DNA of 64,000 nucleotides from a virus, in the IMG/VR virus record IMGVR_UViG_3300011008_000186, one strand, 5' to 3'. Below, one piece after another: positions 1-14,295 of the stretch; positions within the stretch are counted from its first letter, which is position 1; each line of letters opens with the position of its first letter. Made by a program: the position numbers and the translations under genes. Below the pieces are notes generated by a model. That model was not told where the DNA came from, searched no databases, and worked only from the letters and a program-made list of their open reading frames with translations.

Positions 1-3000
1 AATCATAATAATCTCTTGCTATTGGTGTGTTTAGATTGTTTGCTACATCTGCTTCGAGCCATCTATACGTTTTCTTTATTTTTACAATCTTTCCGTTATG
101 TTCCTCTTCAAGTTCAATGCTGGATCCGGCCACGGAATAATATTTGCCATCTTTACAACGATACAATAATCCGCCACCGCATCCATCTTTTACTGGACAG
201 AAACTACTAACGCGTCCTACAAACTGATAGTTATGACCTTTAGCAATTTGATTTGACAATTGATCGAGATCTTCTCTCAAAATATCATTGTCGTTTTTGT
301 TAAGTTCTTTTAGTTTTTTGTCATACTCTTTTTCAAGCTCACTCACGTCGGGAAGGAACTCGTTCATGTCCAAATATAATGCTGAATCCCCAGTAACAGA
401 TTTAGTTTCGCACATATCGGAAAACTCGATCGGCTCTTTTGAGAACAATGTTTTAAATACATATGGAACTTGGAATTGAGTTCCGGTTGCATCCCATTTA
501 CCGTCGTGATAGCAAATGTAAACAGCATTATTCGCAAGACACATTTTGTCATATGTAGCTTCGTGCTCGAAGTTGTATCCATAAAGCTTTCCATAATCCA
601 TAACAAATTGAATTATTTCTGGCGTGGCATTAGGAATCTTAATCGAGTCGGTTTTGATATGGGCTACTGTAAAGCCTCTTTTCTGAACCTGATGCTTGAG
701 ATTTATCATAAACAAAGCACCACGCTTGGCTACGATGTTGTCTTTGTTTCTTGGATCTTTGAATGGATTCTCGAAACTTGCTGAAGTTAAACCATAGACC
801 GAATTAATTGCAATTTTCAAAGCCTGGGCCAACTGTTTTGCTTGATCAGGATCATCCAAATACTTGGCTAATTTACCATTAAATAGCTTCTTAGCCGATT
901 CAAAGTCCTTATGCTTAATGAAAATTCTGGCATTAACTATATCCTGAAAATTCTGAGTATATTTTCCGAATAACCATTCTGCTATAGCTGATGACGGATG
1001 CATAGATGCAATATCAAGAAGAGCTACATTATAGTAAATTCCAGGTTCTGCGTATACATATCCGCCTTCGCCAACTTCTTCGCCTCGATAGAGCGATTTA
1101 AATGCCCCTTTTTCGGTCTTTCCATTCTTAGACAATATCTTTACGTATTTGTACTCATAACCCGGAAATACGGGCTTCTCATCGCTTGTGAAGCATGTAT
1201 ACTCATCATCAAATAAGCAATGATCGGCACCTTCCGCCATGTTACGATAATTGAAACTTGATTGCGGATGCCTTTCGTTACCAAATATAATCTTTTGAGT
1301 CAGTTTAAATACTGCTTCGGTTGCTAATACATCATTGCAGCAATAACTAGCAACTTCTTCCCATCTGCTTTCCGGAACCGGTTCGTCCCAAGGAATACCA
1401 AGTTCTTTATGAACAATAGGCTGATACGGTTTTGAAATATAAAGTTGAACCGTATCTATAGGGATGTCGAGTTTTTTCGAAATTTCTTCATCACTTAGTC
1501 CGTCTTTATGGAACTTGTTAGCTTTGTCGTAATCGGACTGACATTTATTATTAAGCTCTATCTCCCATTTCTTAAGACTTTGCTTTTTACTACAATAATC
1601 ATAAATATCAGTGTACGACATGTCGTAAGCCGGACCATAAAATACAGACTTACTTTTATTTAGAATAATAGACTGTGATAATTCAAATAATCCCTCAAGG
1701 GTTAAATGCTGAATACGACCATAAACAATATGATTATCGTATTTTCGACAGTTAAACCCTACCAGTTTCTTTTTAGAAAATTCCAAACATTCATCTGGTG
1801 TAGGATTGATCATAGTGATCACTGGCATATCAACGTCGTAGTATTTCCAACAGATTACAAAAAGATTTTTAAATGTTTCGACATCATAAATTGTTACTGG
1901 CTCATTATCGTTTTCAACTTCGGCCACAGACCAATCAGTAATTTCTGAAACCTCTTCTTCGTGATCTTTGGACTTAAATTTAATAGTGTCAAGTAAGCCG
2001 AGACAATAATCTGCATGATGAGTGCTATTTGCTGCAAAATCCCAAATAAGTTCGTACATATCTGATAAATCGTATGAAATATCAGAATTGTAAGCATCTT
2101 GAAAAAGCTTTACGATGAAATCCATACTTGGTTTGGTACCAGGTTGGTATTCTTTGTGCATGGAATTAATTATCAATCGTCGTAAATGCTTTTCGTTTTG
2201 TATTTCCTTGCTGTTTACCACCTGGACCTCCTTTTTCAATGGTAAACCACTACTAATTGTTGCTATCGGCTGATCGTTGCATCGTGTGAGTTTTCGACGT
2301 AAAGCCCTCTTGCCTTCGCATATTTTTATCTCTATGTTTTCCGCATATATGTTATCCAGCTTCGACACGTCTCCTGTATAAATATAATGAAGATGTATTC
2401 CGGCATCGGACTTACTTGTTTCTGCATATGTTTTAGGCCAAGTGGATGCTGCTTTCTTATTTAGTTCAAAACTTTTATTTCCGTTTTCGTCTTTAAGATC
2501 AAAGTCAACAAAAATATGTGCCATCCCATTGATTTCCGGAGCTAAAATATAATGAAGCTTCGTAGTATCAAGATCTGATAATTTTGTTTTTACTTTATCC
2601 CATGCCGTTCTTGGGCGATCACGTCCATCAGCTAATACCGTGGCATATTGTGCAGTACAGTCCTTTAAAATATCATCAAGAATGCTGTCTCTTAGTTTCA
2701 GATCAAGCCAATCGTTTGGGGAAGTTTTTTCTGAATTTTCACCCTGGGAATTTTCTTCAAAACTTTTATAGTTTTTCTTGAAAAGTCCGGTTTTAAATCC
2801 AGAATAGACTGATCTGGTACGAGCATTGTCGTTTGAACGAATATCAAATTTTTCGAAATAATTTTTCAATTCTTCTTTGAACGCTCTTTTAGAAAATGGA
2901 TAAGGTACCTTAGCATCTTCGCAGTATTCTTTGTACATTTCGTAAGCTGTAGCCAATGAGATCGAATCTTCTTTTTTAAAAACGAAATACGAGTCAAGAA

Positions 3001-4087
3001 CAAAATCGTAGAAATCATTTGATGCATCGATCATAGTTTCGGGAATATAATCATCATATGCACTGGGATCGGATTCATAAACCTGTTTACAATGATATGC
3101 TATCCCTCCTAATTCGAAGTCAATGTCTTTTATCAAACGCCTGTATTCTTTTGGTGGGATTAATTTTCCGGTTGGACTTACGTCAATCAAACGTCTGATG
3201 ATGCCGGACTTTGCATCGGTAATCCTGACTGGTTTATTAGTTCCCATAAATAAAAAAGAATTAAATCGCATGTTATATAAACCTTTGAACTTTTCATTCA
3301 CTGGCATTTCCTCATGTGATGTTAAAGAATTTAATTTGGTATTGTCTTCGATTCGTGATAGATCGCCGTCATGCTGTATGGCGACTAGTGGATTGTCTTT
3401 CAATGACTCCAAAGCAAATGCGTTTCCTGCTTGTCCCAAAGCCTTTGCGTCGAACGTTCCGTAATATCCAGCGAATAGCTTTTGAATGATATTAAGAACA
3501 GTTGACTTTCCTGTTCCACTTGCGCCATACAGCACTAAAAACTTTTGAATTTTCTTACTGGCACCATTTATTATAGCACCAATCGCCCATTCAATTTTCT
3601 TACGCTCTTTCTCGGAATATAATACGGACATCAGAGTATCGTATGCTGGCGTTTTACATTCTTCCAAAGCATATTCTACTCTCTTTGATGAGTAGTCGCT
3701 TTTCTCCGTTTTATCGTTTAAGAATATAATTTTTTCATCAAGAGGTTTCCAGTTTTCTCTTAAATCTTTCGTGCAGTATGTATGCCACGAGTTTATTATT
3801 CTTGTTGACGATGCCTTTATATGGAGAACTTTAACTCTGGGAACGTCTTCGTATTTGTTTTTTAACTCCTCCCGATACTTTTCGGCGTAATTGTCCAGTT
3901 CTCTATCGATAATATCAAGCACATCTTGCTCGTCAGTGCTCCAACGATGTTCTTCCTCCAGCCAAATAGCATAGAAGTCTTTTCCTCGAATCATTAAATC
4001 TTTCGACTTAATTATCTTAAATTCCGGATAGACTTCCACAACTCCTTTCTTCCCGGGACGGGTTAAAATTTGAAGGAAGTCGAACAC
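1..4087 (-). CDS. Fused replicase: SF3 (D5-like) helicase + AEP primase + family-B DNA polymerase; C-terminus runs off the left edge
   Basis: Hand translation of the minus strand is stop-free from GTG at 4087 (AAGGGGG SD, directly after the TAA of the upstream gene) to nt 1. It is absent from the ORF track only because no stop lies in the window. Walker A LYGASGTGKST (~3500-3535). AEP DFD (~2490-2510) and GIHLHY (~2385-2402). PolB ExoI YDVET (~1875-1890), ExoII YDNH (~1730-1745), ExoIII YCCND (1331-1345), motif A LDIASMHPS (~992-1018), motif B KIAINSVYG (~791-817), motif C IKTDS (~641-661). Confidence 0.85.
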   Translation of the reverse strand, partial: MFDFLQILTRPGKKGVVEVYPEFKIIKSKDLMIRGKDFYAIWLEEEHRWSTDEQDVLDIIDRELDNYAEKYREELKNKYEDVPRVKVLHIKASSTRIINSWHTYCTKDLRENWKPLDEKIIFLNDKTEKSDYSSKRVEYALEECKTPAYDTLMSVLYSEKERKKIEWAIGAIINGASKKIQKFLVLYGASGTGKSTVLNIIQKLFAGYYGTFDAKALGQAGNAFALESLKDNPLVAIQHDGDLSRIEDNTKLNSLTSHEEMPVNEKFKGLYNMRFNSFLFMGTNKPVRITDAKSGIIRRLIDVSPTGKLIPPKEYRRLIKDIDFELGGIAYHCKQVYESDPSAYDDYIPETMIDASNDFYDFVLDSYFVFKKEDSISLATAYEMYKEYCEDAKVPYPFSKRAFKEELKNYFEKFDIRSNDNARTRSVYSGFKTGLFKKNYKSFEENSQGENSEKTSPNDWLDLKLRDSILDDILKDCTAQYATVLADGRDRPRTAWDKVKTKLSDLDTTKLHYILAPEINGMAHIFVDFDLKDENGNKSFELNKKAASTWPKTYAETSKSDAGIHLHYIYTGDVSKLDNIYAENIEIKICEGKRALRRKLTRCNDQPIATISSGLPLKKEVQVVNSKEIQNEKHLRRLIINSMHKEYQPGTKPSMDFIVKLFQDAYNSDISYDLSDMYELIWDFAANSTHHADYCLGLLDTIKFKSKDHEEEVSEITDWSVAEVENDNEPVTIYDVETFKNLFVICWKYYDVDMPVITMINPTPDECLEFSKKKLVGFNCRKYDNHIVYGRIQHLTLEGLFELSQSIILNKSKSVFYGPAYDMSYTDIYDYCSKKQSLKKWEIELNNKCQSDYDKANKFHKDGLSDEEISKKLDIPIDTVQLYISKPYQPIVHKELGIPWDEPVPESRWEEVASYCCNDVLATEAVFKLTQKIIFGNERHPQSSFNYRNMAEGADHCLFDDEYTCFTSDEKPVFPGYEYKYVKILSKNGKTEKGAFKSLYRGEEVGEGGYVYAEPGIYYNVALLDIASMHPSSAIAEWLFGKYTQNFQDIVNARIFIKHKDFESAKKLFNGKLAKYLDDPDQAKQLAQALKIAINSVYGLTSASFENPFKDPRNKDNIVAKRGALFMINLKHQVQKRGFTVAHIKTDSIKIPNATPEIIQFVMDYGKLYGYNFEHEATYDKMCLANNAVYICYHDGKWDATGTQFQVPYVFKTLFSKEPIEFSDMCETKSVTGDSALYLDMNEFLPDVSELEKEYDKKLKELNKNDNDILREDLDQLSNQIAKGHNYQFVGRVSSFCPVKDGCGGGLLYRCKDGKYYSVAGSSIELEEEHNGKIVKIKKTYRWLEADVANNLNTPIARDYYD
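1204..1335. repeat. Repeat locus A: 99-bp exact copy (1204-1302) plus 15-bp (1303-1317) and 20-bp (1316-1335) segments shared with 10298-10450
   Basis: Base-by-base comparison: 1204-1302 is identical to 10312-10410. CATCAT direct repeats at 1204-1209 and 1330-1335 bracket a 126-bp in-frame unit inside the polymerase ORF. Confidence 0.9.
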
Positions 4088-4093
4088 ATCGCT

Positions 4094-4543
4094 TTACCCC
4101 CTTTTGTTGAGGTCATCGATTTTGTGATCGAGATAAGAAACTTCACTCTTGAGTTCATCAACATCGGAATTAAGTCTCTCTTTTTCCTTTTCTAACTTTG
4201 TGAGTTGCTTATTGATAACCATAAGACTAATAAAAGTACCAATCATGCCGATGCCCACTCCGATTATTGCTCTATTATGTGCGACAGCTAATTTGTTCAT
4301 GCCTTTCGCCATCGATACGTCATTTGACGATAGTGTCGATGATAGCGTCAGTAAACCTGTGCCAATCACAGCTTGACTTTCTTTGAGATCACCGATATCC
4401 CTCGTATTAGTGATAACCTGATCACTTAAACTGTTAGGTTTGTCTCCGTTTCCATACGGATATCTTCCAGATTTGGGCTGCTGTATATTGGTGCTATTCT
4501 TATTTTCATTGCTCATTAAAATATCATCCTTTCTAAATTTCAT
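4094..4543 (-). CDS. Hypothetical protein with a hydrophobic segment and a C-terminal coiled coil
   Basis: ORF track. Hydrophobic IIGVGIGMIGTFISLMVI followed by a heptad-like KLEKEKERLNSDVDELK. An alternative start at 4516 has a better SD. Confidence 0.6.
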   Translation of the reverse strand: MKFRKDDILMSNENKNSTNIQQPKSGRYPYGNGDKPNSLSDQVITNTRDIGDLKESQAVIGTGLLTLSSTLSSNDVSMAKGMNKLAVAHNRAIIGVGIGMIGTFISLMVINKQLTKLEKEKERLNSDVDELKSEVSYLDHKIDDLNKRG

Positions 4544-5051
4544 CTAAATAATATTGCATCTGATACCAAATTTCGATTCGTCTCATATCAACGTTTCGCG
4601 ATTTGATTGTAAATAATCCACCTCGACCATTGGCGTCATATTCACGATTTAAAAATCTGGATAAGATAAAATCGACATAATCGTCATTGAAATTATCATT
4701 AGTCATATCTAACAGTTCCATACTGTCAATCATTTTCCAAAACCATTCGGAAGCTCGATTGCCTATATCCGGATCACTCATAATGTCAATTTCAATTCGA
4801 TTAGCTAAAGCCACCATCATTTCGAGAACGCTACACGGCTTTTGTTCTAAATACTCCGGCCAAGTCAACAGTTCCATTTCACGCAGATAATCTTTTCGCA
4901 AGTCGATTCCATCTTTTATCCGATTCACATCTAACAGAATTTTATATGTGAATTCCGTAGAATATAAAGTTTCTAATAACCTTGAATATTTACGAATACT
5001 GGAGTTATCGCAAACCAGATTAGTTAACCAAATATAATATTCGTCGTGCAT
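4533..5051 (-). CDS. Hypothetical protein
   Basis: 172-aa ORF, start overlaps the upstream stop (ATGA-type coupling), coding-like composition. Confidence 0.6.
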   Translation of the reverse strand: MHDEYYIWLTNLVCDNSSIRKYSRLLETLYSTEFTYKILLDVNRIKDGIDLRKDYLREMELLTWPEYLEQKPCSVLEMMVALANRIEIDIMSDPDIGNRASEWFWKMIDSMELLDMTNDNFNDDYVDFILSRFLNREYDANGRGGLFTIKSRNVDMRRIEIWYQMQYYLDEI

Positions 5052-5674
5052 TATTCTCCATACGAATCCAGATCAAAGACAATCTTGTAATCGGTTTCAT
5101 ACAGATCATTTCTCATGTACAGAATTTCCTGTCCATCTTCGAGATATGAAGCAAAATCAAGGCCGACGAATCGATCAATATCATTAGGGCTGAGCATTTC
5201 ATCGTCTTCTGTAAAAAGATGAATCATATCATTGCAGCCCAGCTCAACACATGAATAATCTTCAATTGCTCCATAATCCGATTCGGATATAGGTCTCGGC
5301 AGCTGGCTGAATGAATTCTCAACTACTTCTTCGTCGTCAGGATCCAAATGTGTATATCCCTCCGGAAGATTATCGGTCGGATATTCTTCTTCGGCAGATG
5401 CAGGATCCACTGTCTTCGTATAGTCAACTTTGTTCGTTGAATAGTTTTCATAATATTCTGCCAGAGGCGTCTTATCATCAATGACGTTCGGTTTTTCTTC
5501 TTCCACGCCATTCGAATAGGTTGGTTCGTCTACGCCTAAATACTCGTGCAGCTGCTTTACTTCTTCTGTTAATCTGGATTCAAAATATAATTTTTTAGCA
5601 AGAACATAACCGGCTGCGACTCCAGCACCCAGTCCGGTTATTCCACTAATTGCTATTAACGCATTTTTGTTCAT
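5051..5674 (-). CDS. N-terminally membrane-anchored acidic protein
   Basis: ORF with SD AAGGAG. N-terminal helix ALIAISGITGLGAGVAAGYVLA, remainder D/E-rich. Confidence 0.6.
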   Translation of the reverse strand: MNKNALIAISGITGLGAGVAAGYVLAKKLYFESRLTEEVKQLHEYLGVDEPTYSNGVEEEKPNVIDDKTPLAEYYENYSTNKVDYTKTVDPASAEEEYPTDNLPEGYTHLDPDDEEVVENSFSQLPRPISESDYGAIEDYSCVELGCNDMIHLFTEDDEMLSPNDIDRFVGLDFASYLEDGQEILYMRNDLYETDYKIVFDLDSYGE

Positions 5675-5690
5675 AATTAGATCTCCTTAT

Positions 5691-5762
5691 TTAAATATAG
5701 CCATGGATAATCAAACATATCCTGATTTAAAATATAGCCATGGATAATCAAACATATCCTGT
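5691..5762. repeat. Tandem direct repeat, 2 x ~35 bp, intergenic
   Basis: aaatatagccatggataatcaaacatatcctg occurs twice back to back, immediately upstream (minus sense) of the SD of 5051-5674. Contains the CCATGG palindrome. Confidence 0.85.
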
Positions 5763-5789
5763 TCAGTTCCGCTCCCGAACCCGGCGATA

Positions 5790-6704
5790 TCAGGGCAACA
5801 ATTGCCAAATTGGATGCTTGTCACAATTTAATCTAATCCAAATCCAAGGATCTTTTCCCTTTAAGAAATTGGACCATGATTCCGAGTCACGCATAAGATC
5901 GAAACTAACATGATTTTCAAGATTTGGATCGCTTGTATCATAAATCCAACCATATTTTTGTCCGTATTCAGTGCATTTAACTCTGAGCTTTTTACGAACA
6001 TCATTCTGGAAGAGGATTTTGTCAGCTTTCAAATCTCTGTCACAGTCTTTTTCTATTGCCTGAAGCATGCTCAAAATAGATCCCGGATCTTCATCGTGCA
6101 TCCAAAATGGATGCTTGCCTTTCTCGATTAAAATCGTATTAGTAATGTCAATCAGATCATTTTTAGGTTTGCGAATTGTAGTTGCGTTGCCGTCATTATC
6201 AACGTCAATATATTCTTCTACCTTATCGCCATCCCGAAGATCGTAATATGCTTCTTCTCCGTACTTTTCTTTGAATTTCTTTACAAATTCATCGAACGTT
6301 GCAGAAAGCGCAGCATATGCGGATGTAGCAACTGCCAATCGGCCATCGACAATCTTCTTTGCAGAAAGCATGCTAATAATTGACGCCGCCTGAAGACCAA
6401 CTGCTGGGGCGAATAAAATGGCTATCTTTCCAAGGTATCTTGCATAAATACGGGTCATTTCACGACCCATATCCCCGGGGTTATCCGAATATCTTTCCTG
6501 ACAATCGATAATCTCTGCTTTGAAGTCTTCAATGATCGGAGGAAGTTTCATGCCACCTCTGATCGCAAATGCCATACTACCGATACCAGTAGCAATCGAT
6601 ACGCCAGTTAATATCTCTGGCGATTTCTGTTGAACTTTTAACAGAAATTTGTTTTTGGGTACTACTAGATTGTTCAAAATATAATTCTCCTTTCTATCAT
6701 TCAT
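5790..6704 (-). CDS. Membrane protein (two hydrophobic helices), paralogous architecture to 8058-8831 and 9277-9933
   Basis: ORF track. Helices ILTGVSIATGIGSMAFAI and IAILFAPAVGLQAASIISML. Confidence 0.55.
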   Translation of the reverse strand: MNDRKENYILNNLVVPKNKFLLKVQQKSPEILTGVSIATGIGSMAFAIRGGMKLPPIIEDFKAEIIDCQERYSDNPGDMGREMTRIYARYLGKIAILFAPAVGLQAASIISMLSAKKIVDGRLAVATSAYAALSATFDEFVKKFKEKYGEEAYYDLRDGDKVEEYIDVDNDGNATTIRKPKNDLIDITNTILIEKGKHPFWMHDEDPGSILSMLQAIEKDCDRDLKADKILFQNDVRKKLRVKCTEYGQKYGWIYDTSDPNLENHVSFDLMRDSESWSNFLKGKDPWIWIRLNCDKHPIWQLLP

Positions 6705-7305
6705 CTAACGGAACAGCTTTGGGTAAATCCAAATACCATTTTCCTCCGGACGAAACAACTCGCGCCTCGTCTTCCGCAAGACTATACCAACCATATCTTG
6801 CATCGGCCGGACTTCCAACAGGCTTTCCGTTTTCATCCATAGTTTCGGCAAGATCATACATATCTCGTACAGAACATACTTTGTATCTGTTTATTGCGGC
6901 TCGCATATTCATTAACACTTTTTCTGCTTTGCCCATCGAGGTAAATTCGACATCTGCATAATCATATACGGATGTATACTTTTTGTTCAGACGAGACGAT
7001 GAAGAAAGCTGGCTTTGGGTCGACGGCTTCTTATAATATCTTTCATAAGATACCGAATCTTCCCGGCTTCTCGATCTGGATACACCAGACGAATTACCCC
7101 AAAGCAAAGCGTGTGTTCCTTTACTTATAGTGTCATCGAGAAGATTTTTGACAGCTGGTATTAAAATATCTTTTACGATATAGTTTCCAACCGACGCCAA
7201 ACTTTCAGGAAAAAATGTTTTAACTGCACTCCTGGTCGAGTTTCTTTTTACAAGATACGTTTGATCTACTACTGGCTCTAAACGTTTTTCTTTTTCGTCG
7301 GCCAT
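6697..7305 (-). CDS. Hypothetical protein
   Basis: 202-aa ORF, overlaps its neighbours by a few nt (operon-like). Confidence 0.6.
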   Translation of the reverse strand: MADEKEKRLEPVVDQTYLVKRNSTRSAVKTFFPESLASVGNYIVKDILIPAVKNLLDDTISKGTHALLWGNSSGVSRSRSREDSVSYERYYKKPSTQSQLSSSSRLNKKYTSVYDYADVEFTSMGKAEKVLMNMRAAINRYKVCSVRDMYDLAETMDENGKPVGSPADARYGWYSLAEDEARVVSSGGKWYLDLPKAVPLDE

Positions 7306-7506
7306 TTAGTAACTCCTTTCTATTTTTCCAGGTAACTCAATTTTAGTTTTCTGGATTTGATTATTGGATTTCTTAAATTGATACATAAAATTCGATTTTG
7401 CTTTCTTTTCGGAAGGAGCCATTGTTTCTGCCTTCCAGTTGTAAGCCAATATCTTTCCAAACTGAGTCACCGGACCTGTATAACTATACTTGTACATTCG
7501 ATCCAT
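7306..7506 (-). CDS. Small basic hypothetical protein
   Basis: 66-aa ORF. Start context GGAGGATTATATTTATG. Confidence 0.5.
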   Translation of the reverse strand: MDRMYKYSYTGPVTQFGKILAYNWKAETMAPSEKKAKSNFMYQFKKSNNQIQKTKIELPGKIERSY

Positions 7507-7537
7507 AAATATAATCCTCCTTCCTAATAAAAAAGCT

Positions 7538-7578
7538 GAAAAAAAAAGAAGAGGGCTCTAAAAAGAGCCGCTCCTCTT
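7538..7578 (-). terminator. Rho-independent terminator
   Basis: Minus strand GGCTCT-TTTT-AGAGCC hairpin with extended stem, followed by CTCTTCTTTTTTTTT. Confidence 0.7.
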
Positions 7579-7609
7579 AATTGCTGAAACTAATTCTTAA
7601 TTATTAGAA

Positions 7610-7951
7610 TTATTCTTCTTCGTCATCGGTTACATCATCAACAGAATTGATGATCTTATTGAGTTCTGCTTTTCTGTTGAGAATATCTCGGTAATCCTTC
7701 TCAAGACGTTTCTCTTTCTTCTCAAGCCGCTTATAAGCTCTTCTTGCTTTCTTGTCCTCTGGCGTGAGTTTGTTCACAAGTGTTATCACGCCATATGCAA
7801 GTGCAGGAATAGCTGCTGCTGCTCCGAGACCGCCTACGAGAATACTCTTGGTGTCAGGATGCCACTTTGTTGCTTCATCAACAGGAACCTCAATCTTTGA
7901 TTCCATCATCTCTGCATTTACGATTTCTTCGTTAACCATGTTACTTTCCAT
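7610..7951 (-). CDS. Single-pass membrane / coiled-coil protein
   Basis: ORF with SD AGGAGG. Helix ILVGGLGAAAAIPALAYGVITLV, then a K/R/E-rich tail. Confidence 0.55.
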   Translation of the reverse strand: MESNMVNEEIVNAEMMESKIEVPVDEATKWHPDTKSILVGGLGAAAAIPALAYGVITLVNKLTPEDKKARRAYKRLEKKEKRLEKDYRDILNRKAELNKIINSVDDVTDDEEE

Positions 7952-8006
7952 TTTTAATTCCTCCTAAAATATAATTAATTTAAATTAGTTTTGAAGATTG
8001 ATTATC

Positions 8007-8035
8007 TTCATATAAGCATATTAATTTTTCGCGAA
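8007..8035 (-). promoter_or_regulatory. TTCGCGAA-type promoter-like element, copy 1
   Basis: Minus strand TTCGCGAAAAATTAATATGCTTATATGAAG, ~55 nt upstream of the 7951 start. Confidence 0.5.
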
Positions 8036-8057
8036 GCATTCTTTTTAATTTAAAATA

Positions 8058-8831
8058 TCAACCATACCGATGCACATAATCAGCATGGAAATCCACTCCG
8101 ATCTCAACTACAATCGCAGCTTCGCCAGTTGCAGGACAAGAAACAGTATAATGTTCAATATCTAACGAGAGATTCTTAAGATCACCCTCATCGAGTCCCA
8201 ATTCCCATCCTATGCGACAATAATCAAGATCAAGAAAGTTTCTCCAATCATTTAATGCAGCATTACCGTTTGCTATTTCATCTTTTAATCTCGTGAAAGC
8301 TTCGGCCACCGCGGCGTGACTGGACCTAAAGAATTTATCACTTTGAGGTTCGTAGAATAGAATCTCTCCATGATTTGTCGTAGCTATATCGGATACATCG
8401 TAATGATCTTTATTGTCCTCAACAATTTCTTTACGAACTTGATCCTCTATAACTTTTGTTGCTTCCTCGCCAATTTGTTTCTTTGTTTCTTCCAAAAGTT
8501 TTTCTTTACTGGCTTCGGCCAAAGCAAGGCCTGCCTGAAGCGTATTAACACGTTTCTCTTGGTCGACATCCGAAACTACTATTGCCGACGTGGAAGCAAT
8601 CGCTACGGAGAAGGGAACTACATAGTACTTCCATCCGATTTTAATAATTTGTTTTGGAGTAAGTTTATCAACCCCAAGACGTTCTTTTTCGGCATCTACT
8701 GCTCTCGTAGCTTTAACTGTTCTGCATACAGCCCAGACAGAAGCTCCCCACATGCCGGCAACACCAACGCCGGTTAATATTTTGCTTCGGTTTTGAGCCA
8801 TAAACTTAGAAAAGTTACTGCTTGCTTTCAT
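8058..8831 (-). CDS. Membrane protein (paralogous architecture to 5790-6704)
   Basis: ORF track. Helices ILTGVGVAGMWGASVWAV and YYVVPFSVAIASTSAIVV, followed by a coiled-coil-like segment. Confidence 0.55.
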   Translation of the reverse strand: MKASSNFSKFMAQNRSKILTGVGVAGMWGASVWAVCRTVKATRAVDAEKERLGVDKLTPKQIIKIGWKYYVVPFSVAIASTSAIVVSDVDQEKRVNTLQAGLALAEASKEKLLEETKKQIGEEATKVIEDQVRKEIVEDNKDHYDVSDIATTNHGEILFYEPQSDKFFRSSHAAVAEAFTRLKDEIANGNAALNDWRNFLDLDYCRIGWELGLDEGDLKNLSLDIEHYTVSCPATGEAAIVVEIGVDFHADYVHRYG

Positions 8832-8833
8832 TG

Positions 8834-9016
8834 TTACTCCTTCCCTTCGGTGGTAACAGGTTCGTTTTTGTCTTTCTTGGGCAGAAGCTTAATATCACAG
8901 ATTCGCTTTGTCGGATCTATTACTGACGCTCCGATTGTTGCAAATCCGGCTATTGCGCCAAGTGATACAGATAGAATCTGTAGCCCTACTCCAATAGGCA
9001 TGTTTTTGATTGACAT
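8834..9016 (-). CDS. Small membrane protein
   Basis: 60-aa ORF, hydrophobic GVGLQILSVSLGAIAGFATIGA. Confidence 0.45.
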   Translation of the reverse strand: MSIKNMPIGVGLQILSVSLGAIAGFATIGASVIDPTKRICDIKLLPKKDKNEPVTTEGKE

Positions 9017-9046
9017 AGTTACAAATCTCCTTTCAATTAAAAATAT

Positions 9047-9083
9047 ATAAAAAAGAAAAGAGGAGACTTTTTTAAATCTCCTC
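9047..9083 (-). terminator. Rho-independent terminator
   Basis: GAGGAGA/TCTCCTC 7-bp stem followed by a T-run on the minus strand. Confidence 0.65.
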
Positions 9084-9092
9084 TAATCTTAA

Positions 9093-9212
9093 TTAACCTT
9101 TTCTTCCAAATCGCTTGGAAGGATTTACACAAAAGGTACCAATAATAGTTACAATACTGCCCGCACATGTTAATACTGCTCCTGCAATTAAAACTAATAC
9201 TACTACTAACAT
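9093..9212 (-). CDS. 39-aa hydrophobic micro-protein (below the ORF-track cutoff)
   Basis: Hand translation gives MLVVVLVLIAGAVLTCAGSIVTIIGTFCVNPSKRFGRKG. SD AGGAGGATTAATAAAATG. Has its own promoter-like element and terminator. Confidence 0.4.
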   Translation of the reverse strand: MLVVVLVLIAGAVLTCAGSIVTIIGTFCVNPSKRFGRKG

Positions 9213-9243
9213 TTTATTAATCCTCCTATTTTGTGAAAGTTTA

Positions 9244-9275
9244 TTCTTATCATAATAGAGGACTAAAATTTCGCG
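9244..9275 (-). promoter_or_regulatory. TTCGCGAA-type promoter-like element, copy 2 (variant CCGCGAAA)
   Basis: Minus strand CCGCGAAATTTTAGTCCTCTATTATGATAAG. Confidence 0.45.
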
Positions 9276-9276
9276 G

Positions 9277-9933
9277 CTAATGACAATCCTGGTAATCCGG
9301 TCTCGGCGGCTCCGGATAAGTTAAAATATAATAATACGATCCATCATCTCGAACCACCTTTTGATGCTGAAAGTCTATCCATTTACAAAATTCTTTGTCC
9401 CAGCAATATACATCTCCTAATGCATTTCTTGGACGATCCTGCTGCAAAGATAAATAAAAATAAAAATCATTAAGATAAACTTTGTCGGACAATGCGAATA
9501 TCCGGTTGATGTCATACTCCGCAGCAAATAAATCCATCAATCGAATCTGAAACCAGCCGGCATTTTCTTCTTCGGATTCTCTTCTAAAATCTTCAAATAT
9601 CCATACAAGGTCATCGAGATCTTCATCTATTATGATTTCCTGACGTTCGATCATTTCCTTTAAACCGGATGCAGCAAGTAAACCACCACCAGCCAAGGTC
9701 GACAGTAATGCAGCTTTTTGTTTTCTGTTTAGTACATCAGAAAATATAATAGACGCACCCGTAACACCAAACGATATAGATGTCGGTATGTAATGTTTCA
9801 GAATTTGCTTTTTAGGTTTGCCCGATTCGATATCTGTAAATGCCTTAAGAGTATCATGAATCGCCAAAGCAGTAGTTGTTGCTAAACCCGCCATGCTGGT
9901 TACGGTTAATATCGTCGACAATTTATTATTCAT
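9277..9933 (-). CDS. Membrane protein (paralogous architecture to 5790-6704 and 8058-8831)
   Basis: ORF track gives 9277-9948. The second ATG at 9933 has a GAGGA SD. Helices LSTILTVTSMAGLATTTALAI and ISFGVTGASIIF. Confidence 0.55.
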   Translation of the reverse strand: MNNKLSTILTVTSMAGLATTTALAIHDTLKAFTDIESGKPKKQILKHYIPTSISFGVTGASIIFSDVLNRKQKAALLSTLAGGGLLAASGLKEMIERQEIIIDEDLDDLVWIFEDFRRESEEENAGWFQIRLMDLFAAEYDINRIFALSDKVYLNDFYFYLSLQQDRPRNALGDVYCWDKEFCKWIDFQHQKVVRDDGSYYYILTYPEPPRPDYQDCH

Positions 9934-10411
9934 GGTCGTCGTCCTCATTAATAGGCGGAGTCATTTTAGTAGAAAAATCTCCTTCCATTGCGCATATAAA
10001 AGCCATATTACATGCAGCATGTTTATAATGCGGAATGCCTGATTCTGAATCGACTCCTGCTGGATCATCAATATACGCAAGAAGATGACGAAGCAAAGCA
10101 TCCACGTATCGTTTCTTTTCTACAGTCTTCCAATTGTCTGGATCACCATATTTTTTATTACCATACATTCTGACCTCAGCAATATCACGAATGATCTGTG
10201 TTGGAACCAAGCTGATCTGAAGCTTTCCTTCATCCGCTTTCGCTGTCTGATTATCCAGAGACAATGACTTTTTAAAATAGTTTTCATATGATACCGGTTC
10301 GGTTGCTAATACATCATCAAATAAGCAATGATCGGCACCTTCCGCCATGTTACGATAATTGAAACTTGATTGCGGATGCCTTTCGTTACCAAATATAATC
10401 TTTTGAGTCAC
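9926..10411 (-). CDS. MazZ-like dNTP pyrophosphohydrolase domain protein (DUF5664-like)
   Basis: Core EGKLQISLVP..YGNKKYGDPDNW..LLRHLLAY..DSESGIPHYKHAACN matches my memory of the dATP/dGTP diphosphohydrolase N-terminal family. GTG start without a clear SD. The first 33 aa are encoded by the 99-bp repeat shared with the polymerase. Confidence 0.55.
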   Translation of the reverse strand: MTQKIIFGNERHPQSSFNYRNMAEGADHCLFDDVLATEPVSYENYFKKSLSLDNQTAKADEGKLQISLVPTQIIRDIAEVRMYGNKKYGDPDNWKTVEKKRYVDALLRHLLAYIDDPAGVDSESGIPHYKHAACNMAFICAMEGDFSTKMTPPINEDDDHE

Positions 10412-10450
10412 GAGCTAAGAAATCGCCTTGAGTATGTTTAAATACTGCTT
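10298..10450. repeat. Repeat locus B: permuted copy of locus A (20 bp + 99 bp + 25-bp unique insert + 15 bp)
   Basis: 10298-10317 = 1316-1335; 10312-10410 = 1204-1302; 10436-10450 = 1303-1317; 10411-10435 has no counterpart. Confidence 0.9.
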
Positions 10451-10778
10451 TGCGACATATCGGCGGTATTCCGTATGTAGAATTTAATGCATTTATCGGC
10501 ATGCGTTTTTGCAATTTTAAACTATTTTTGTAATCATTATCTTTTATTGCGGGTACCGCTCGGCCATCCAAATATTTAATAATAAAATCACCGATATTAA
10601 CTGAGTGAATTTGAGGCAAAGCAATAGAGTTAATATCTGGCGAAGATTCATAAAATAAGATCGATACACTAAAATCTTCAAGATGCATATGAGTTCTAAT
10701 AAAGCGATCACCTAAAAATTTTTTAACGGAATCCAAATTCTGTCCGGTGTATTCGATTACCTTCAACTTATTATCCAT
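10386..10778 (-). CDS. Hypothetical protein; its 3' end lies inside repeat locus B
   Basis: 130-aa ORF with SD AGGAGG. Removing the 25-bp insert 10411-10435 would fuse it in frame to 9926-10411. Confidence 0.5.
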   Translation of the reverse strand: MDNKLKVIEYTGQNLDSVKKFLGDRFIRTHMHLEDFSVSILFYESSPDINSIALPQIHSVNIGDFIIKYLDGRAVPAIKDNDYKNSLKLQKRMPINALNSTYGIPPICRKAVFKHTQGDFLARDSKDYIW

Positions 10779-10802
10779 TTTTCTAATTCCTCCTAAATAT
10801 AA

Positions 10803-10991
10803 TTAAGCTTTGGGCTTACCTACTATACCTTCGTCCCATGCTTTCCAAGCCTCTTTCGGCGTTTCATATCCATACGAAGTTCGTTTTCGGCAGTTTGGAC
10901 AGCTGATCCAATAAACATCCATACTTCTTTCATCAGCAGAAGTTTTATGATACTCATTTACTTTCGGAACTTTTCCGCAGCACTTTCGCAT
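10803..10991 (-). CDS. Lar-like restriction-alleviation zinc-ribbon protein
   Basis: CCGK..ISCPNCRKRTSYGYETPKEAWKAWDEG resembles the Lar family pattern (Cys pairs, then eA..aWN). Confidence 0.45.
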   Translation of the reverse strand: MRKCCGKVPKVNEYHKTSADERSMDVYWISCPNCRKRTSYGYETPKEAWKAWDEGIVGKPKA

Positions 10992-11151
10992 CCGAATCTC
11001 CTTTCTTCCAGTGAACCGGTTTATGTGAATTAGTATTCACCGGCTCGTCGAGGCAGTCATCGCATGGGCTGTCTTCTTCTGCTTTGCCGTAGAATCTGCA
11101 AGTAGGACAATAAACATCAAAAAACACTTCCTTGAGTTCGTTTACTTCCAT
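10954..11151 (-). CDS. Small zinc-ribbon protein
   Basis: 65-aa ORF with CPTC...CDDC. Confidence 0.45.
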   Translation of the reverse strand: MEVNELKEVFFDVYCPTCRFYGKAEEDSPCDDCLDEPVNTNSHKPVHWKKGDSDAKVLRKSSESK

Positions 11152-11153
11152 TA

Positions 11154-11774
11154 TTAATTCTCCTTTTTTCGTATATCGATACGACCGTAGTCATAAATAT
11201 CAATAGCAACTTCAAAATCCGCATGTGGCGAATTCAATACAACTTCGTCTATCTGTGTATCGAATATCGGACTATTCGAAAAATTCTCCGTGAACTTACT
11301 AACATTTTCAGCAAATGCCTCTGCGTCTTCTTTCCTTCTGAAGAAATAATAATCTTCAAACGGATCGCCATCATCATATGGGTTATCAGACAGTACCGTG
11401 CATCGATAAGTTGTAATATCGCATCCATAAAGTGATTGTAAGCGGTTTACATCTTTTGAAGTGTGGCCATCCCAATGCTTAGCTGTTTCGAGTTCCTGGC
11501 ATGTAAACTTATACCAATGCTTAAGTTCATAATGATAAGTATATGATCCTCTTGGCGTATCGATCCCGACTATAAAGTATTCACCATTAAAACATGGACT
11601 TCCATCTTCATGTCTTTTGCTTTTCCAAGATCGCTCAGGATAAGCATCAACTAAAGCTATTGTTAAATATAATCTCTGCTCATAAAGATCGTTGAATGTA
11701 TGATAACCATCGGACAACTCTCCGATTCCACCCTCTGGTATTTTTGTTAATAAATCTCTAGCTAACTCTGCCAT
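11154..11774 (-). CDS. WDGH-domain-like protein
   Basis: 206-aa ORF with SD AGGAGG. Contains YHTFNDLYEQR and KHWDGHT signatures. Confidence 0.5.
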   Translation of the reverse strand: MAELARDLLTKIPEGGIGELSDGYHTFNDLYEQRLYLTIALVDAYPERSWKSKRHEDGSPCFNGEYFIVGIDTPRGSYTYHYELKHWYKFTCQELETAKHWDGHTSKDVNRLQSLYGCDITTYRCTVLSDNPYDDGDPFEDYYFFRRKEDAEAFAENVSKFTENFSNSPIFDTQIDEVVLNSPHADFEVAIDIYDYGRIDIRKKEN

Positions 11775-11801
11775 TTTAATTACCTCCTATTTTTAGACAA
11801 T

Positions 11802-11835
11802 AAAAAGGAGCGGTTTAAAGTCTCGCTCCAAGACT
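11802..11835 (-). promoter_or_regulatory. Conserved hairpin element (T-element), copy a, variant stem
   Basis: Plus-strand GGAGCG-gtttaaagtct-CGCTCC. It has the same 11-nt loop as the other five copies, and its innermost stem pair is G-C instead of A-T. Confidence 0.6.
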
Positions 11836-11861
11836 GTTTTAGTGGTTTAAAATATAATTAA

Positions 11862-12197
11862 TTATTCATCGAATGCCGGACAACTCGCTTTACATTCTGG
11901 ATAAGGTCCACCACAATTAGCGCATCCCCATGGGATATCACTAGTGTCTTCATATTCCCAATCGTCTTCGTCCATAGTATATCCGCAATTAAAGCATTTA
12001 AATTCTCGTTCCAAATTGCTGTATCTCATCTCAATACCGCATTCGGGGCAATTTGGACAAAAGCCGGAATAATCAGGAATATCATGATAACCTTCGTCAT
12101 CATCATCGGGACCATATCCGTGAAGTCGATCGTGCGCATATGAGCTTTCCGGATGATCGCCAGAACCAGAAAATATATTACCTAAAAACTTGAACAT
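11862..12197 (-). CDS. Acidic Cys-rich (multi zinc-ribbon) protein
   Basis: 111 aa; CPNCPECG..CFNCG..CANCGG..CKASC; D/E-rich. Confidence 0.55.
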   Translation of the reverse strand: MFKFLGNIFSGSGDHPESSYAHDRLHGYGPDDDDEGYHDIPDYSGFCPNCPECGIEMRYSNLEREFKCFNCGYTMDEDDWEYEDTSDIPWGCANCGGPYPECKASCPAFDE

Positions 12198-12259
12198 TGT
12201 GCAACCTCCTCTTAATTTGTAAGGAGATTATACAATGTTTCAACAAGTTTTACTATATT

Positions 12260-13246
12260 TTATTTCGATTCTTCCAAAATGTTTATTCCGATTTTTTCTT
12301 TGACTTTTAGCGCAATTTCATTGATCGATTTACGTCCAAGATTCCTAATATTTTGGAGTTGTTCAAGATGAGATTTTCCCGGACGCGAATCCAAATAGCA
12401 CAATAGATCGTCAATTGTATGTATCCCTTTCCGGATAAGACAGTTGCGGGATCTTACTGACAGTTCAAGTTCATCGATGGACTCTAAATATAAATTTATT
12501 TCGTTGACGTCCACATCTTTCGAATTAATTAATTGAGTTTTTCTTTTAATATATTCTTCATACTCTTTTTCAAAAAGCTCAATCTCTTTCTTTCGCTGAC
12601 ATCCATTATAGCCATATAATATCAATGCGCTACGAGAACTATGACGCATTTTTCGAACAGCTTTGGCAATTATCTGCCGTATTCGCTCTCTAGTAACATG
12701 AAACTTTTTTGCAATTTCATCATACGTCTCATTATTCTGATAGTAGCAAATAATACAATCCCTTTCTCTCTGTGAAAGCATCTGCAGCGCATTTGCTAAA
12801 CCTTGTTCCTGATCGTTAGTAAGCATAGAGTTGCCATTCAAATAATCGCTTCCGTTAAAAATAACATCGAGCAGGTTATAAGGATAAGGAGCAATAAAAC
12901 CATCCGGTATTTCAATAGTTTTATTCTTATTCCTTGGAACTTTCTGAGAATAAAGATACTGTTCATATGAATTTCTACGGGCTAAATTGTAAAAATTAGC
13001 AAGTAACATCTTTATATCATGTTCTTCTAATTCGGTCAGGTTCGTTCTTCCTAAAATATAATCTGTCGGAACCATAAAGAAATCGGCCATCGCCATCAAA
13101 GTATTAACAGTCGGAGCTGCGTACATGCCGATGTAATTTTTTAACTGAGTTTCCTTGATTCCTATTTTTCTAGCGAGATCTCTTTGCGAAATCTGAGCCA
13201 AATCCATTAGTTCTTTTAATTTACTTGAATCCCATTTTTTATTCAT
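12260..13246 (-). CDS. Chimeric transcription factor: XRE-type HTH + sigma-70 region-4-like + RNAP alpha C-terminal-domain-like
   Basis: N-terminal ISQRDLARKIGIKETQLKNYI (XRE helix-turn-helix, HTH). Middle LSQRERDCIICYY..TYDEIAKKFHVTRERIRQIIAKAVRKMR (sigma region 4). C-terminal IDELELSVRSRNCLIRKGIHTIDDLL..IRNLGRKSINEI (alphaCTD helix-hairpin-helix). No sigma region 2 seen. Confidence 0.7.
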   Translation of the reverse strand: MNKKWDSSKLKELMDLAQISQRDLARKIGIKETQLKNYIGMYAAPTVNTLMAMADFFMVPTDYILGRTNLTELEEHDIKMLLANFYNLARRNSYEQYLYSQKVPRNKNKTIEIPDGFIAPYPYNLLDVIFNGSDYLNGNSMLTNDQEQGLANALQMLSQRERDCIICYYQNNETYDEIAKKFHVTRERIRQIIAKAVRKMRHSSRSALILYGYNGCQRKKEIELFEKEYEEYIKRKTQLINSKDVDVNEINLYLESIDELELSVRSRNCLIRKGIHTIDDLLCYLDSRPGKSHLEQLQNIRNLGRKSINEIALKVKEKIGINILEESK

Positions 13247-13248
13247 AT

Positions 13249-13611: not shown

Positions 13612-13631
13612 ATTCTAGTCCTCCATTTTTA

Positions 13632-14045: not shown

Positions 14046-14086
14046 GTTTCTACTCCTCCTAGTTTGAAATATAATTTAAGAAAAAT

Positions 14087-14117
14087 AAAAGAGCAGTTTA
14101 AAGTCTTGCTCAGGACT
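14087..14117 (-). promoter_or_regulatory. Conserved hairpin element (T-element), copy b
   Basis: aaaagagcagtttaaagtcttgctcaggact, directly upstream of the SD of 13632-14045. Confidence 0.6.
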
Positions 14118-14136
14118 TTTTACAATGTAAGGTTTC

Positions 14137-14283: not shown

Positions 14284-14295
14284 TTCATTCACCTC

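What the first reader, a model, noticed from the sequence alone, without database searches (positions are those of the whole stretch)
1204..10450. 99-bp perfect repeat with circularly permuted flanks linking the DNA polymerase gene and the MazZ-like locus
1204-1302 equals 10312-10410 exactly. The flanks also match, but in permuted order. At locus A (polB) the order is X(99) + S2(15) + S1(20). At locus B it is S1(20) + X(99) + a 25-bp unique insert + S2(15). In the polymerase, the 126-bp (42-codon) unit is in frame and bracketed by CATCAT direct repeats (1204-1209, 1330-1335), immediately after the ExoIII Asp codon. Locus B contains the X-to-S1 junction that a circle or a tandem duplication of that unit would create. 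At locus B the 25-bp insert (10411-10435) is what separates ORF 10386-10778 from ORF 9926-10411. Removing it fuses them in frame. As a result the same 33-aa peptide (TQKIIFGNERHPQSSFNYRNMAEGADHCLFDD) is encoded in both the polymerase and the MazZ-like protein. Zero divergence over 99 bp implies a recent or ongoing exchange such as template switching, circle-mediated transposition of a mini-segment, or gene conversion.
Basis: seen in the sequence. Interest (0 to 1): 0.62.

Follow-up and report, generated by a model that had tools for sequence, protein, structure and literature searches.

The report
Polymerase fragment copy, blurred by misassembly
A rumen phage really does carry a circularly permuted, in-frame copy of a 204-base piece of its DNA polymerase gene inside a MazZ-like gene. 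The "99-bp repeat", the "25-bp insert" and the "126-bp unit" are most likely damage done by the assembler where it crossed that repeat.

Summary
1204-1302 equals 10312-10410 exactly, and the flanks are permuted as described.

The anatomy is misleading. A contig 100% identical to the window elsewhere (L006, SPAdes-style name) carries an exact 192-nt repeat R in both genes. There the polymerase is intact (1410 aa) and the MazZ-like gene is one 301-aa ORF. The window lacks 78 nt of R in the polymerase and 53 nt at locus B. The "25-bp insert" is surviving polymerase sequence (HTQGDFLAR).

Five different deletions occur in assemblies of this phage. Each has one end exactly 99 nt from an end of R. 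That is where k=100 de Bruijn unitigs end, and the moose-rumen study these IMG datasets are labelled as used IDBA-UD. The deleted 26 aa are present in 120 of 121 family members. I therefore read the deletions as scaffold-merge artefacts (about 0.9).

What remains real is one exact, unit-length (204 nt, 68 codons), circularly permuted polymerase segment. It is inserted in frame, with ATGATG and AA microhomology at its joints. It is best read as a single recent illegitimate-recombination event, through a small circle or a tandem intermediate. It is a lineage-specific curiosity with no evidence of function, so interest is low.

The parts
2..4087 (-). Fused D5-like helicase/primase and family B DNA polymerase gene. 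It runs off the window start. The true product is 1410 aa; in the window it lacks 26 aa.
   Evidence: DUF5906 and Pox_D5; phrog_4210, with the profile match breaking at residue 928. P0244 is 1410 aa and intact; weak match to E. coli Pol II across the palm motifs.
1204..1302 (-). X, polymerase copy. It is the last 99 nt of the true 192-nt repeat R (R[94..192]) and encodes TQKIIFGNE...CLFDD.
1302..1303 (.). Junction where 78 nt of the polymerase gene (HTQGDFLARKILADIAGMNYNTPTNT) are missing. Inferred scaffold-merge artefact.
   Evidence: 120 of 121 homologues keep the segment. L006 is intact, and the right-hand piece starts at R[94].
1303..1317 (-). S2, the first 15 nt of R in the polymerase gene (AAGCAGTATTTAAAC on the coding strand; AVFK).
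1318..1335 (-). Native polymerase sequence D-VLATE just after the ExoIII Asp. It includes the upstream ATGATG hexamer (1330-1335). Its partner hexamer lies at 1204-1209.
9926..10778 (-). MazZ-like gene: orphan N-terminal region, polymerase patch, then a PF18909 domain. It is a single 301-aa ORF in L006. In the window it is split into 10386-10778 and 9926-10411.
   Evidence: PF18909, E 4.7e-24. P0245 is 301 aa. L006 5508-6413; the N-terminal part has no homologue.
10298..10311 (-). 14-nt permuted polymerase piece (TATTAGCAACCGAA; VLATE) that follows R at locus B. It closes exactly one 204-nt unit, with a 2-nt AA overlap.
10312..10410 (-). X, locus-B copy (R[94..192]).
10410..10411 (.). Junction where 53 nt of R (..KILADIAGMNYNTPTNTL) are missing, which causes the frameshift. 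Inferred scaffold-merge artefact.
   Evidence: L003, from the same study, carries the missing sequence directly upstream of X.
10411..10450 (-). The first 40 nt of R at locus B (AVFK-HTQGDFLAR).
   Evidence: tblastx match to the polymerase gene of L001..

Best explanation
Two layers are superimposed.

**Layer 1: real biology.** In this temperate rumen phage, one unit of the family B polymerase gene has been copied into the MazZ-like (PF18909) gene 5.8 kb upstream.
- The unit is 204 nt, or 68 codons: VLATE-AVFK-HTQGDFLARKILADIAGMNYNTPTNT-LTQKII...CLFDD. It lies between two ATGATG hexamers just after the ExoIII Asp.
- The copy sits between the orphan N-terminal region and the catalytic domain. 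It is in the same orientation and the same reading frame as in the polymerase.
- It is circularly permuted. It starts at AA|GCAGTA (AVFK), runs 192 nt to GATGATG, jumps back across the ATGATG microhomology to TATTAGCAACCG (VLATE), and ends at the same AA where it began.
- A copy of exactly one unit length whose two ends fall at the same donor position is what integration of a 204-nt circle would give. A unit excised from a tandem duplication would give the same. In both cases the unit forms by recombination between the ATGATG hexamers and integrates by one illegitimate crossover at an AA dinucleotide. This step is inferred.
- Donor and copy are 100% identical over 206 nt, so the event is recent. 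The product is a 301-aa in-frame chimera.

**Layer 2: artefact.** The resulting 192-nt exact repeat R is shorter than 2 x 99.
- In a k=100 de Bruijn graph, the unitig entering R ends at R[99] and the unitig leaving it starts at R[94]. They overlap by only 6 nt (TGACTC).
- The repeat core is 192 nt, below IDBA-UD's 200-nt minimum contig length.
- The scaffolder then joined the flanking contigs using an over-estimated negative gap and did not check the overlap. That removed 78 and 53 nt in this contig, and different amounts in sister assemblies.
- This created the 99-bp repeat, the 25-bp 'insert', the split MazZ-like ORFs and the 26-aa gap in the polymerase.
For: **Shown**
- L006 (ENA ERZ3810914, NODE_241) is 100% identical to the window over 16.2 kb, apart from an intact 192-nt R at both loci.
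- Its polymerase is 1410 aa and its MazZ-like ORF is 301 aa.
- Junction geometry:
  - The four DNA-level deletions are window A 78 nt, window B 53 nt, L002 A 202 nt and L002 B 140 nt. In each, the retained piece starts at R[94].
  - P0249, known only as protein, has a 111-nt deletion and keeps exactly R[1..99].
  - So one end of every deletion is 99 nt from an end of R, while the other end varies.
- In sample 3300010998 the crossing was left unjoined. L008 ends at R[59] (k-1 for k=60) and L003 starts at R[60] with the intact sequence.
- IMG 3300011002 and 3300011005 are moose rumen, Palmer, Alaska (PMC10734544).
- That study sequenced four size fractions of one rumen sample, assembled each separately and then co-assembled them (PMC6784887). 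It used IDBA-UD (PMC5322302).
- The missing 26 aa are present in 120 of 121 family members, with at least 7 invariant columns.
- The '25-bp insert' is homologous to the polymerase gene of the 70%-identical relative L001.
- The junctions b1|R and R+14|b2 are identical in all assemblies.
- Removing the 204-nt unit leaves a continuous 233-aa ORF.

**From my own knowledge, not verified here**
- IDBA-UD defaults are k = 20 to 100 in steps of 20, with a minimum contig length of 200.
- It appends contigs at negative estimated distances without aligning them.
Against: - The lack of read support for 1302/1303 and 10410/10411 is therefore inferred.
- I could not confirm that the IMG records are the authors' IDBA-UD assemblies.
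- I could not confirm whether ERZ3810914 is an independent sample or a re-assembly of the same reads.
- Contig L004 starts at R[158], which fits no k-1 value.
- The exact abutment of L008 and L003 is only partly explained.
- Deletion sizes up to 202 nt imply large errors in the gap estimates.
- For the origin of the patch, no circle, tandem intermediate or patch-less ancestor was found. A circle cannot be told apart from serial template switching on this evidence alone.
Confidence: 0.82

Rival explanations
1. The deletions are real population variants. A site-specific break at C|TGACTC|A, present in both copies, is repaired by end joining with one-sided resection. The break could come from a nuclease, a homing endonuclease of a co-infecting relative, or CRISPR targeting. 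The result would be a hypervariable hotspot.
For: Five different deletions share one endpoint within 6 nt. Microhomology at the joints is 0-1 nt, as in end joining. The site lies in the most conserved stretch of the polymerase, which is a typical homing-endonuclease target. Both copies are affected in each full-length contig.
Against: - The shared endpoints are exactly R[94] and R[99], that is 99 nt from either end of the repeat. A biological hotspot has no reason to sit there. An assembler with k-1 = 99 does.
- All variants are labelled as the same moose-rumen study, which sequenced fractions of one rumen sample, and are otherwise 100% identical (PMC6784887).
- L002's version frameshifts the essential polymerase, and the window's version removes invariant residues.
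- The SPAdes-style contig has both copies intact.
- GAGTC and GANTC enzyme cut positions do not fit the junctions.
Confidence: 0.05
2. The locus-B patch arose by serial template switching during replication or break repair (MMBIR/FoSTeS-like filler synthesis), not from a circle. A 3' end from the MazZ-like gene primed on the polymerase gene and copied 192 nt. It slipped back 204 nt at ATGATG, copied 14 more nt and returned.
For: Microhomology is present at each joint: AA, ATGATG and AA. Donor and acceptor lie 9 kb apart on the same strand. Backward slippage between short direct repeats is a standard replication error (established knowledge).
Against: The copy ends at the very nucleotide where it began, so it is exactly one unit plus a 2-nt overlap. 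Under free template switching that is a coincidence of roughly 1 in 100 or more. A circle or a unit excised from a tandem gives it automatically. No secondary structure brings the switch points together (z = -0.15).
Confidence: 0.3
3. The patch is a retained, functional domain graft. The polymerase-derived 68 aa would tether or regulate the MazZ-like dNTP pyrophosphatase at the replisome, and gene conversion with the polymerase gene would keep it identical.
For: The patch is in frame, in the polymerase's own reading frame and free of stops, so the 301-aa ORF is intact. It lies in a linker that varies among homologues. Identity is 100% over 206 nt.
Against: Only this lineage carries it. No other small protein in 5.8 billion clusters contains the segment, and the nearest relative, L001, lacks the gene altogether. 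Zero divergence is explained more simply by a recent origin. An in-frame, stop-free insert is the only kind that would survive in a needed gene. The fragment is not a complete fold.
Confidence: 0.1
4. The whole polymerase patch at locus B is a chimeric assembly, and the true genome has no polymerase sequence there.
For: The locus lies in a repeat-affected region of assemblies that demonstrably contain errors.
Against: The junctions b1|R and R+14|b2 lie inside contigs and are identical in five assemblies made with two different kinds of assembler. De Bruijn assemblers cannot invent junction k-mers. The joints share only 2 nt of homology, far below any k.
Confidence: 0.03

Closest known systems
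Local assembly (scaffolding) errors of IDBA-UD-type de Bruijn assemblers at short exact repeats (Chen et al. 2020, Genome Res, PMC7111523)
   Same: The junction sequence is absent from an alternative assembly. The errors sit at a repeat. The breakpoints fall at k-1 from the repeat ends. Different assemblies labelled as the same moose-rumen study give different results.
   Different: Here the repeat (192 nt) is just under 2(k-1) and under the minimum contig length. Every crossing was therefore damaged, and the damage mimics in-frame and frameshift deletions in two genes.
Microhomology-mediated templated insertions, and re-integration of small DNA circles (eukaryotic microDNA/eccDNA; MMBIR/FoSTeS rearrangements). 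Comparison from my own knowledge.
   Same: A short donor segment is copied to an ectopic site with 2-6 nt of microhomology at each joint. The unit size (about 200 nt) and the circular permutation are what a microDNA-like circle would give.
   Different: This occurs in a phage genome. It is a single event and is in frame within a coding region. No circle was observed, and the enzymes involved are unknown.
Diversity-generating retroelement template/variable repeat pairs
   Same: Two copies of a 100-200-nt segment lie in one phage genome, one of them inside a gene, and one boundary appeared to be fixed.
   Different: No reverse transcriptase was found among ORFs of at least 200 aa. There are no adenine-specific differences, because the copies are identical. 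The copy is permuted. The fixed boundary is an assembler effect.
MazZ/PF18909 (dATP/dGTP diphosphohydrolase) phage proteins
   Same: The C-terminal 90 aa match PF18909 (E 4.7e-24) and are 60-88% identical to hundreds of metagenomic homologues.
   Different: The N-terminal 113 aa are an orphan, and a polymerase-derived 68-aa insert lies between the two parts. No activity was tested, and no PurZ was looked for.

Membership tests
Assembly (scaffold-merge) artefact at a repeat | Breakpoints fall at k-1 (or k) from the ends of an exact repeat. | tested here: met
   All five deletions have one end at R[94] or R[99] of the 192-nt repeat, that is 99 nt from a repeat end. L008 ends at R[59].
Assembly (scaffold-merge) artefact at a repeat | The junction is absent from an alternative assembly of the same organism. 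| tested here: met
   L006 is 100% identical over 16.2 kb and carries an intact R at both loci. L003 carries the intact sequence upstream of X.
Assembly (scaffold-merge) artefact at a repeat | Separate assemblies of the same material give different junctions. | tested here: met
   The window, L002, L003/L008 and P0249 all differ at these junctions. The IMG datasets holding L002 and L004 are listed as the moose-rumen study (PMC10734544); for the other records, including the window's own contig, a shared origin is inferred. That study sequenced fractions of one rumen sample (PMC6784887).
Assembly (scaffold-merge) artefact at a repeat | No read spans the junction. | not testable with these tools
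Circle-derived or tandem-derived templated insertion | The donor is elsewhere in the genome, the copy is permuted, its length equals one unit, and both ends fall at the same donor position. | tested here: met
   The patch is 192 + 14 nt, which is 204 nt plus a 2-nt AA overlap.
Circle-derived or tandem-derived templated insertion | Microhomology at the unit-closing joint. | tested here: met
   ATGATG occurs at both ends of the unit in the polymerase gene (window 1204-1209 and 1330-1335).
Circle-derived or tandem-derived templated insertion | The circular or tandem intermediate is observed. | not testable with these tools
   No reads were available. No assembly shows a tandem duplication in the polymerase gene.
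Diversity-generating retroelement | A reverse transcriptase gene nearby. | tested here: not met
   A Pfam scan of 19 of the 23 listed ORFs of at least 200 aa in 12-64 kb, plus the ORFs around the loci, found no RT. The 2742-aa ORF, two ORFs on the opposite strand and all smaller ORFs were not scanned.
Diversity-generating retroelement | Adenine-specific mismatches between the template and variable repeats. | tested here: not met
   The copies are 100% identical.
Intein, intron or homing-endonuclease insertion in the polymerase gene | Extra sequence in the polymerase relative to its family. | tested here: not met
   The window's polymerase has less sequence than its relatives, not more. The intact version aligns colinearly with 120 homologues.
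Family B DNA polymerase | ExoI-III motifs plus palm motifs A (DxxSLYPS-like) and C (DTDS-like). | tested here: met
   YDVET, NCRKYDNH, YCCND, LDIASMHPS and IKTDS are all present. There is a weak match to E. coli Pol II over motifs A-C (E 0.003). phrog_4210 is annotated as DNA polymerase.
MazZ-like PF18909 | Profile match above the gathering threshold. | tested here: met
   84.7 bits against a cut-off of 27. Enzyme activity was not tested.

The most novel reading that the evidence does not exclude
The intact locus records the re-integration of a 204-bp DNA circle into a phage genome. The circle would have been excised from the polymerase gene between two ATGATG hexamers and inserted at an AA dinucleotide, a prokaryotic-virus counterpart of eukaryotic microDNA. 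It would have created, in one step, an in-frame chimeric protein that joins a polymerase peptide to a dNTP pyrophosphatase.
Probability: 0.3. Interest if true: 0.45.

Novelty: new member of a known kind. Interest (0 to 1): 0.2.

Why it matters
The main value is as a caution. The public record for this phage shows a polymerase lacking 26 conserved residues and a MazZ-like gene split in two. A sister record shows a frameshifted polymerase. All of these are probably scaffolding damage at a 192-bp repeat, so neither gene calls nor "recombination hotspot" inferences should be built on them. The rule used here can be applied to other metagenomic contigs: a breakpoint lying exactly k-1 from the end of a repeat points to the assembler.

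The biological remainder is a clean, datable example of how a phage can graft a piece of one gene into another, in frame, through microhomology. It is a minor contribution to understanding how chimeric phage genes arise.

Tried and rejected
- **Close DNA relatives in the phage collection.** None were found.
- **Junction pattern in viral contigs and metagenome contigs.** There were 0 hits, although JGI contigs contain the pattern, so those collections do not hold these records.
- **Exact look-up of the window's own polymerase.** It is not on record.
- **Homing endonuclease, CRISPR escape or nuclease hotspot at TGACTC.** I held this idea until the endpoints proved to be exactly 99 nt from both ends of R. 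GAGTC (PleI/MlyI) and GANTC (HinfI) cut positions do not fit the junctions either.
- **Slippage between the internal repeats ATACTC and ACTCAA.** The predicted products do not match the observed junctions.
- **RNA splicing.** I considered this in case the records were metatranscriptomes, and rejected it. The 5' ends vary with no common motif, and the study describes DNA metagenomes (PMC6784887).
- **DGR.** No RT was found and there are no A-specific mismatches.
- **Native homology between the MazZ-like N-termini and X.** The BLAST extensions into X are not real similarity. Conserved homology starts at NQTAKADEGKL.
- **A structural driver for the rearrangement.** The DNA fold has z = -0.15.
- **Other proteins carrying the patch.** Only a polymerase fragment was found.

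Full report
**1. Observation**

- 1204-1302 and 10312-10410 are identical over 99 nt.
- At locus A the order on the + strand is X, a 15-nt block, then a roughly 20-nt block.
- At locus B the roughly 20-nt block comes first (10291-10317, 93%). X follows, then 25 other bases, then the 15-nt block.
- All genes here are on the minus strand.
- Locus A lies in a 1362-aa (open-ended) ORF at 2..4087. This ORF fuses a D5/DUF5906 helicase-primase with a family B polymerase.
- Locus B lies where ORF 10386-10778 (130 aa, no family) overlaps ORF 9926-10411 (161 aa, PF18909 dATP/dGTP diphosphohydrolase, E 4.7e-24).

**2. What the polymerase family shows**

I aligned the window's polymerase with its homologues. 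Of the 121 sequences, 120 carry a 26-residue segment between AVF(K/D) and LTxKIIFG. In the nearest relative this segment reads ATQGDFLARKILADIAGMNYNTPTNT. At least seven of its columns are invariant. Only the window's protein lacks it, and the gap falls exactly at 1302/1303.

The '25-bp unique insert' at locus B, read on the coding strand, is AT ACT CAA GGC GAT TTC TTA GCT CG. That encodes HTQGDFLAR, the beginning of the missing polymerase segment. It also aligns to the polymerase gene of a 70%-identical relative (L001). So locus B holds polymerase sequence that the window's own polymerase gene lacks.

**3. Near-identical contigs**

Cluster look-ups and exact-protein look-ups of neighbouring genes retrieved several records of the same phage.

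- **L006 (ENA ERZ3810914, NODE_241_length_29187).** It is 100% identical to the window over 16.2 kb, except that both loci carry an uninterrupted, exact 192-nt repeat R. R is made of the 15-nt block, 78 nt and X. There the polymerase is 1410 aa and colinear with the family. The MazZ-like gene is a single 301-aa ORF: an orphan N-terminus, then AVFK-HTQGDFLARKILADIAGMNYNTPTNT-LTQKII..CLFDD, then VLATE, then PVSYENYF and the PF18909 domain.
- **L002 (JGI 3300011005, 76,639 nt).** It is also 100% identical elsewhere but has larger gaps: 202 nt in the polymerase gene, which frameshifts it into 887-aa and 456-aa ORFs, and 140 nt at locus B.
- **A 1433-nt JGI contig.** It encodes P0249, in which locus B lacks 111 nt on the other side of the same site.
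- **JGI sample 3300010998.** The crossing is unjoined. L008 ends at R[59], and L003 starts at R[60] with the intact sequence.

**4. Why the gaps are artefacts**

One search gives the four DNA-level junctions relative to R.

| Junction | Left piece ends | Right piece starts | Deleted |
|---|---|---|---|
| Window A | R[15] | R[94] | 78 nt |
| Window B | R[40/41] | R[94] | 53 nt |
| L002 A | 108 nt before R | R[94] | 202 nt |
| L002 B | 47 nt before R | R[94] | 140 nt |

P0249 keeps exactly R[1..99] and then resumes 18 nt beyond R. This is deduced from its protein sequence, because the junction codon CTA needs C from R[99] plus TA.

So every deletion has one end exactly 99 nt from one end of the repeat and an arbitrary other end. 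In a de Bruijn graph with k=100:
- The unitig entering a repeat ends at its 99th base.
- The unitig leaving it starts 99 bases before its end.
- For a 192-nt repeat these two unitigs overlap by only 6 nt (TGACTC), and the repeat core is a 192-nt contig.

IDBA-UD uses k = 20, 40, 60, 80 and 100 and discards contigs under 200 nt. When it scaffolds at a negative estimated distance, it drops that many bases from the appended contig without checking the overlap. These three points are from my own knowledge and were not verified here. That behaviour would remove the estimate minus 6 bases at every crossing of R, by a different amount each time, which is what is seen. The R[59] end of L008 is the k=60 equivalent.

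The literature fits this account.
- That study's four metagenomes are size fractions of one rumen-fluid sample, assembled individually and then co-assembled (PMC6784887).
- The assembler was IDBA-UD (PMC5322302).

A biological hotspot has no reason to lie exactly 99 nt from both ends of the repeat. It is also unlikely to yield a different pair of deletions in each separate assembly of this phage, or to leave a frameshifted or motif-less essential polymerase in a phage abundant enough to assemble into 76 kb. I put the artefact reading at about 0.9.

The caveats are these.
- Reads could not be examined.
- I could not confirm that the IMG records are the authors' own assemblies.
- L004 begins at R[158], which fits no k value.
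- The exact abutment of L008 and L003 is only partly explained.

**5. What is real**

The junctions b1|R (..TGTCGCA|AAGCAGTATT..) and R|TATTAGCAACCGAA|CCGGTATC.. are identical in every assembly, including the SPAdes-style one. They share only about 2 nt with their flanks, so no assembler could have invented them.

The donor unit in the polymerase gene runs from the base after the first ATGATG (codons N-D|V) to the second ATGATG (D-D|E). That is 204 nt, or 68 codons.

Locus B starts at AA|GCAGTA inside that unit and runs 192 nt to GATGATG. It continues with TATTAGCAACCG, which is the beginning of the unit, and ends at the same AA. The total is 206 nt, one unit plus a 2-nt overlap, and it is 100% identical to the donor.

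Removing 204 nt restores a continuous 233-aa ORF (..PPICRK|PVSYENYF..). That length is within the range of MazZ-like homologues, whose N-termini vary and whose conserved part begins at NQTAKADEGKL.

The N-terminal 113 aa have no homologue among 1.84 billion representative proteins. No other protein of 165-527 aa in the large database carries the polymerase segment. The nearest relative, L001, has no MazZ-like gene at this position. The graft is therefore young and lineage-specific.

**6. Mechanism**

A copy of exactly one unit length, permuted, with both ends at the same donor nucleotide, is the automatic product of two related routes. One is a 204-nt circle formed by recombination between the ATGATG hexamers. 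The other is one unit excised from a tandem duplication made the same way. Either would integrate by a single illegitimate crossover at AA.

Serial template switching (prime on the polymerase gene, slip back at ATGATG, return) also explains the microhomologies. It makes the coincidence of start and end points fortuitous, so I rank it second, at about 0.3. No DNA secondary structure links the switch points.

No reverse transcriptase was found, and there are no A-biased differences, so this is not a DGR. The phage is temperate, with a tyrosine integrase at 21677-22726.

Whether the 68-aa graft does anything is unknown. It comprises half of the ExoIII helix plus the conserved TNxLTxKIIFG stretch. 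Being in frame and free of stops is what survival in a needed gene would require, so it is not evidence of function.

**7. Verdict**

The specific anatomy (99 bp, 126-bp unit, 25-bp insert, split ORFs) is most likely assembler damage. The underlying event is an ordinary, if neat, microhomology-mediated segmental copy. Interest is 0.2.

Noticed in passing
window 2-4087 (-); L006 12252-16484: The replication protein is a single 1410-aa fusion of a DUF5906/D5-like helicase-primase with a family B polymerase. The family is very large in gut and rumen metagenomes: 8000 or more hits, mostly 1330-1400 aa.
   Followed up: partly
window 1204-1317 and 10312-10450 (true R, 192 nt, 9.2 kb apart, direct): In the intact genome, two exact 192-nt direct repeats flank 9.2 kb that includes the helicase-primase half of the polymerase gene. 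Homologous recombination between them would delete this block and fuse the orphan N-terminus to the polymerase domain. I saw no such recombinant contig.
   Followed up: no
L009 and L010 (ENA NODE_241 and JGI Ga0139361_1000164): The same gene lies at identical record coordinates (9146-15679) in the ENA contig and the JGI contig. Both contigs therefore start at the same genome position. Either both come from the same reads or this is a fixed genome end.
   Followed up: no
window 10439-10778 (-): The N-terminal 113 aa of the MazZ-like gene have no homologue among 1.84 billion representative proteins.
   Followed up: yes
window 5690-5761: Two 35-nt direct repeats lie 37 nt apart (97% identical) in the intergenic region upstream of ORF 5051-5674. 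Contig L004 ends about 35 nt beyond the repeat pair.
   Followed up: no
window 21677-22726 (+): A tyrosine integrase (PF00589 plus an N-terminal SAM-like domain) lies on the opposite strand, so the phage is temperate. Portal, terminase and tail genes lie at 37-62 kb.
   Followed up: partly
window 16155-16609: Internal 83-87% repeats lie upstream of (just outside) the stretch that matches L002's pentapeptide/DUF7666 gene exactly. This is another place where short-read assemblies of this phage may be unreliable.
   Followed up: no
L004 position 1 (R[158]): This contig begins 35 nt before the end of R, which fits none of the k-1 values that explain the other boundaries.
   Followed up: no
L001 (Logan SRR30535858_840): The 70%-identical relative keeps synteny around the polymerase gene, but the region upstream is mosaic. 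The Lar-like and DUF6353 genes are rearranged, and there is no MazZ-like gene.
   Followed up: partly
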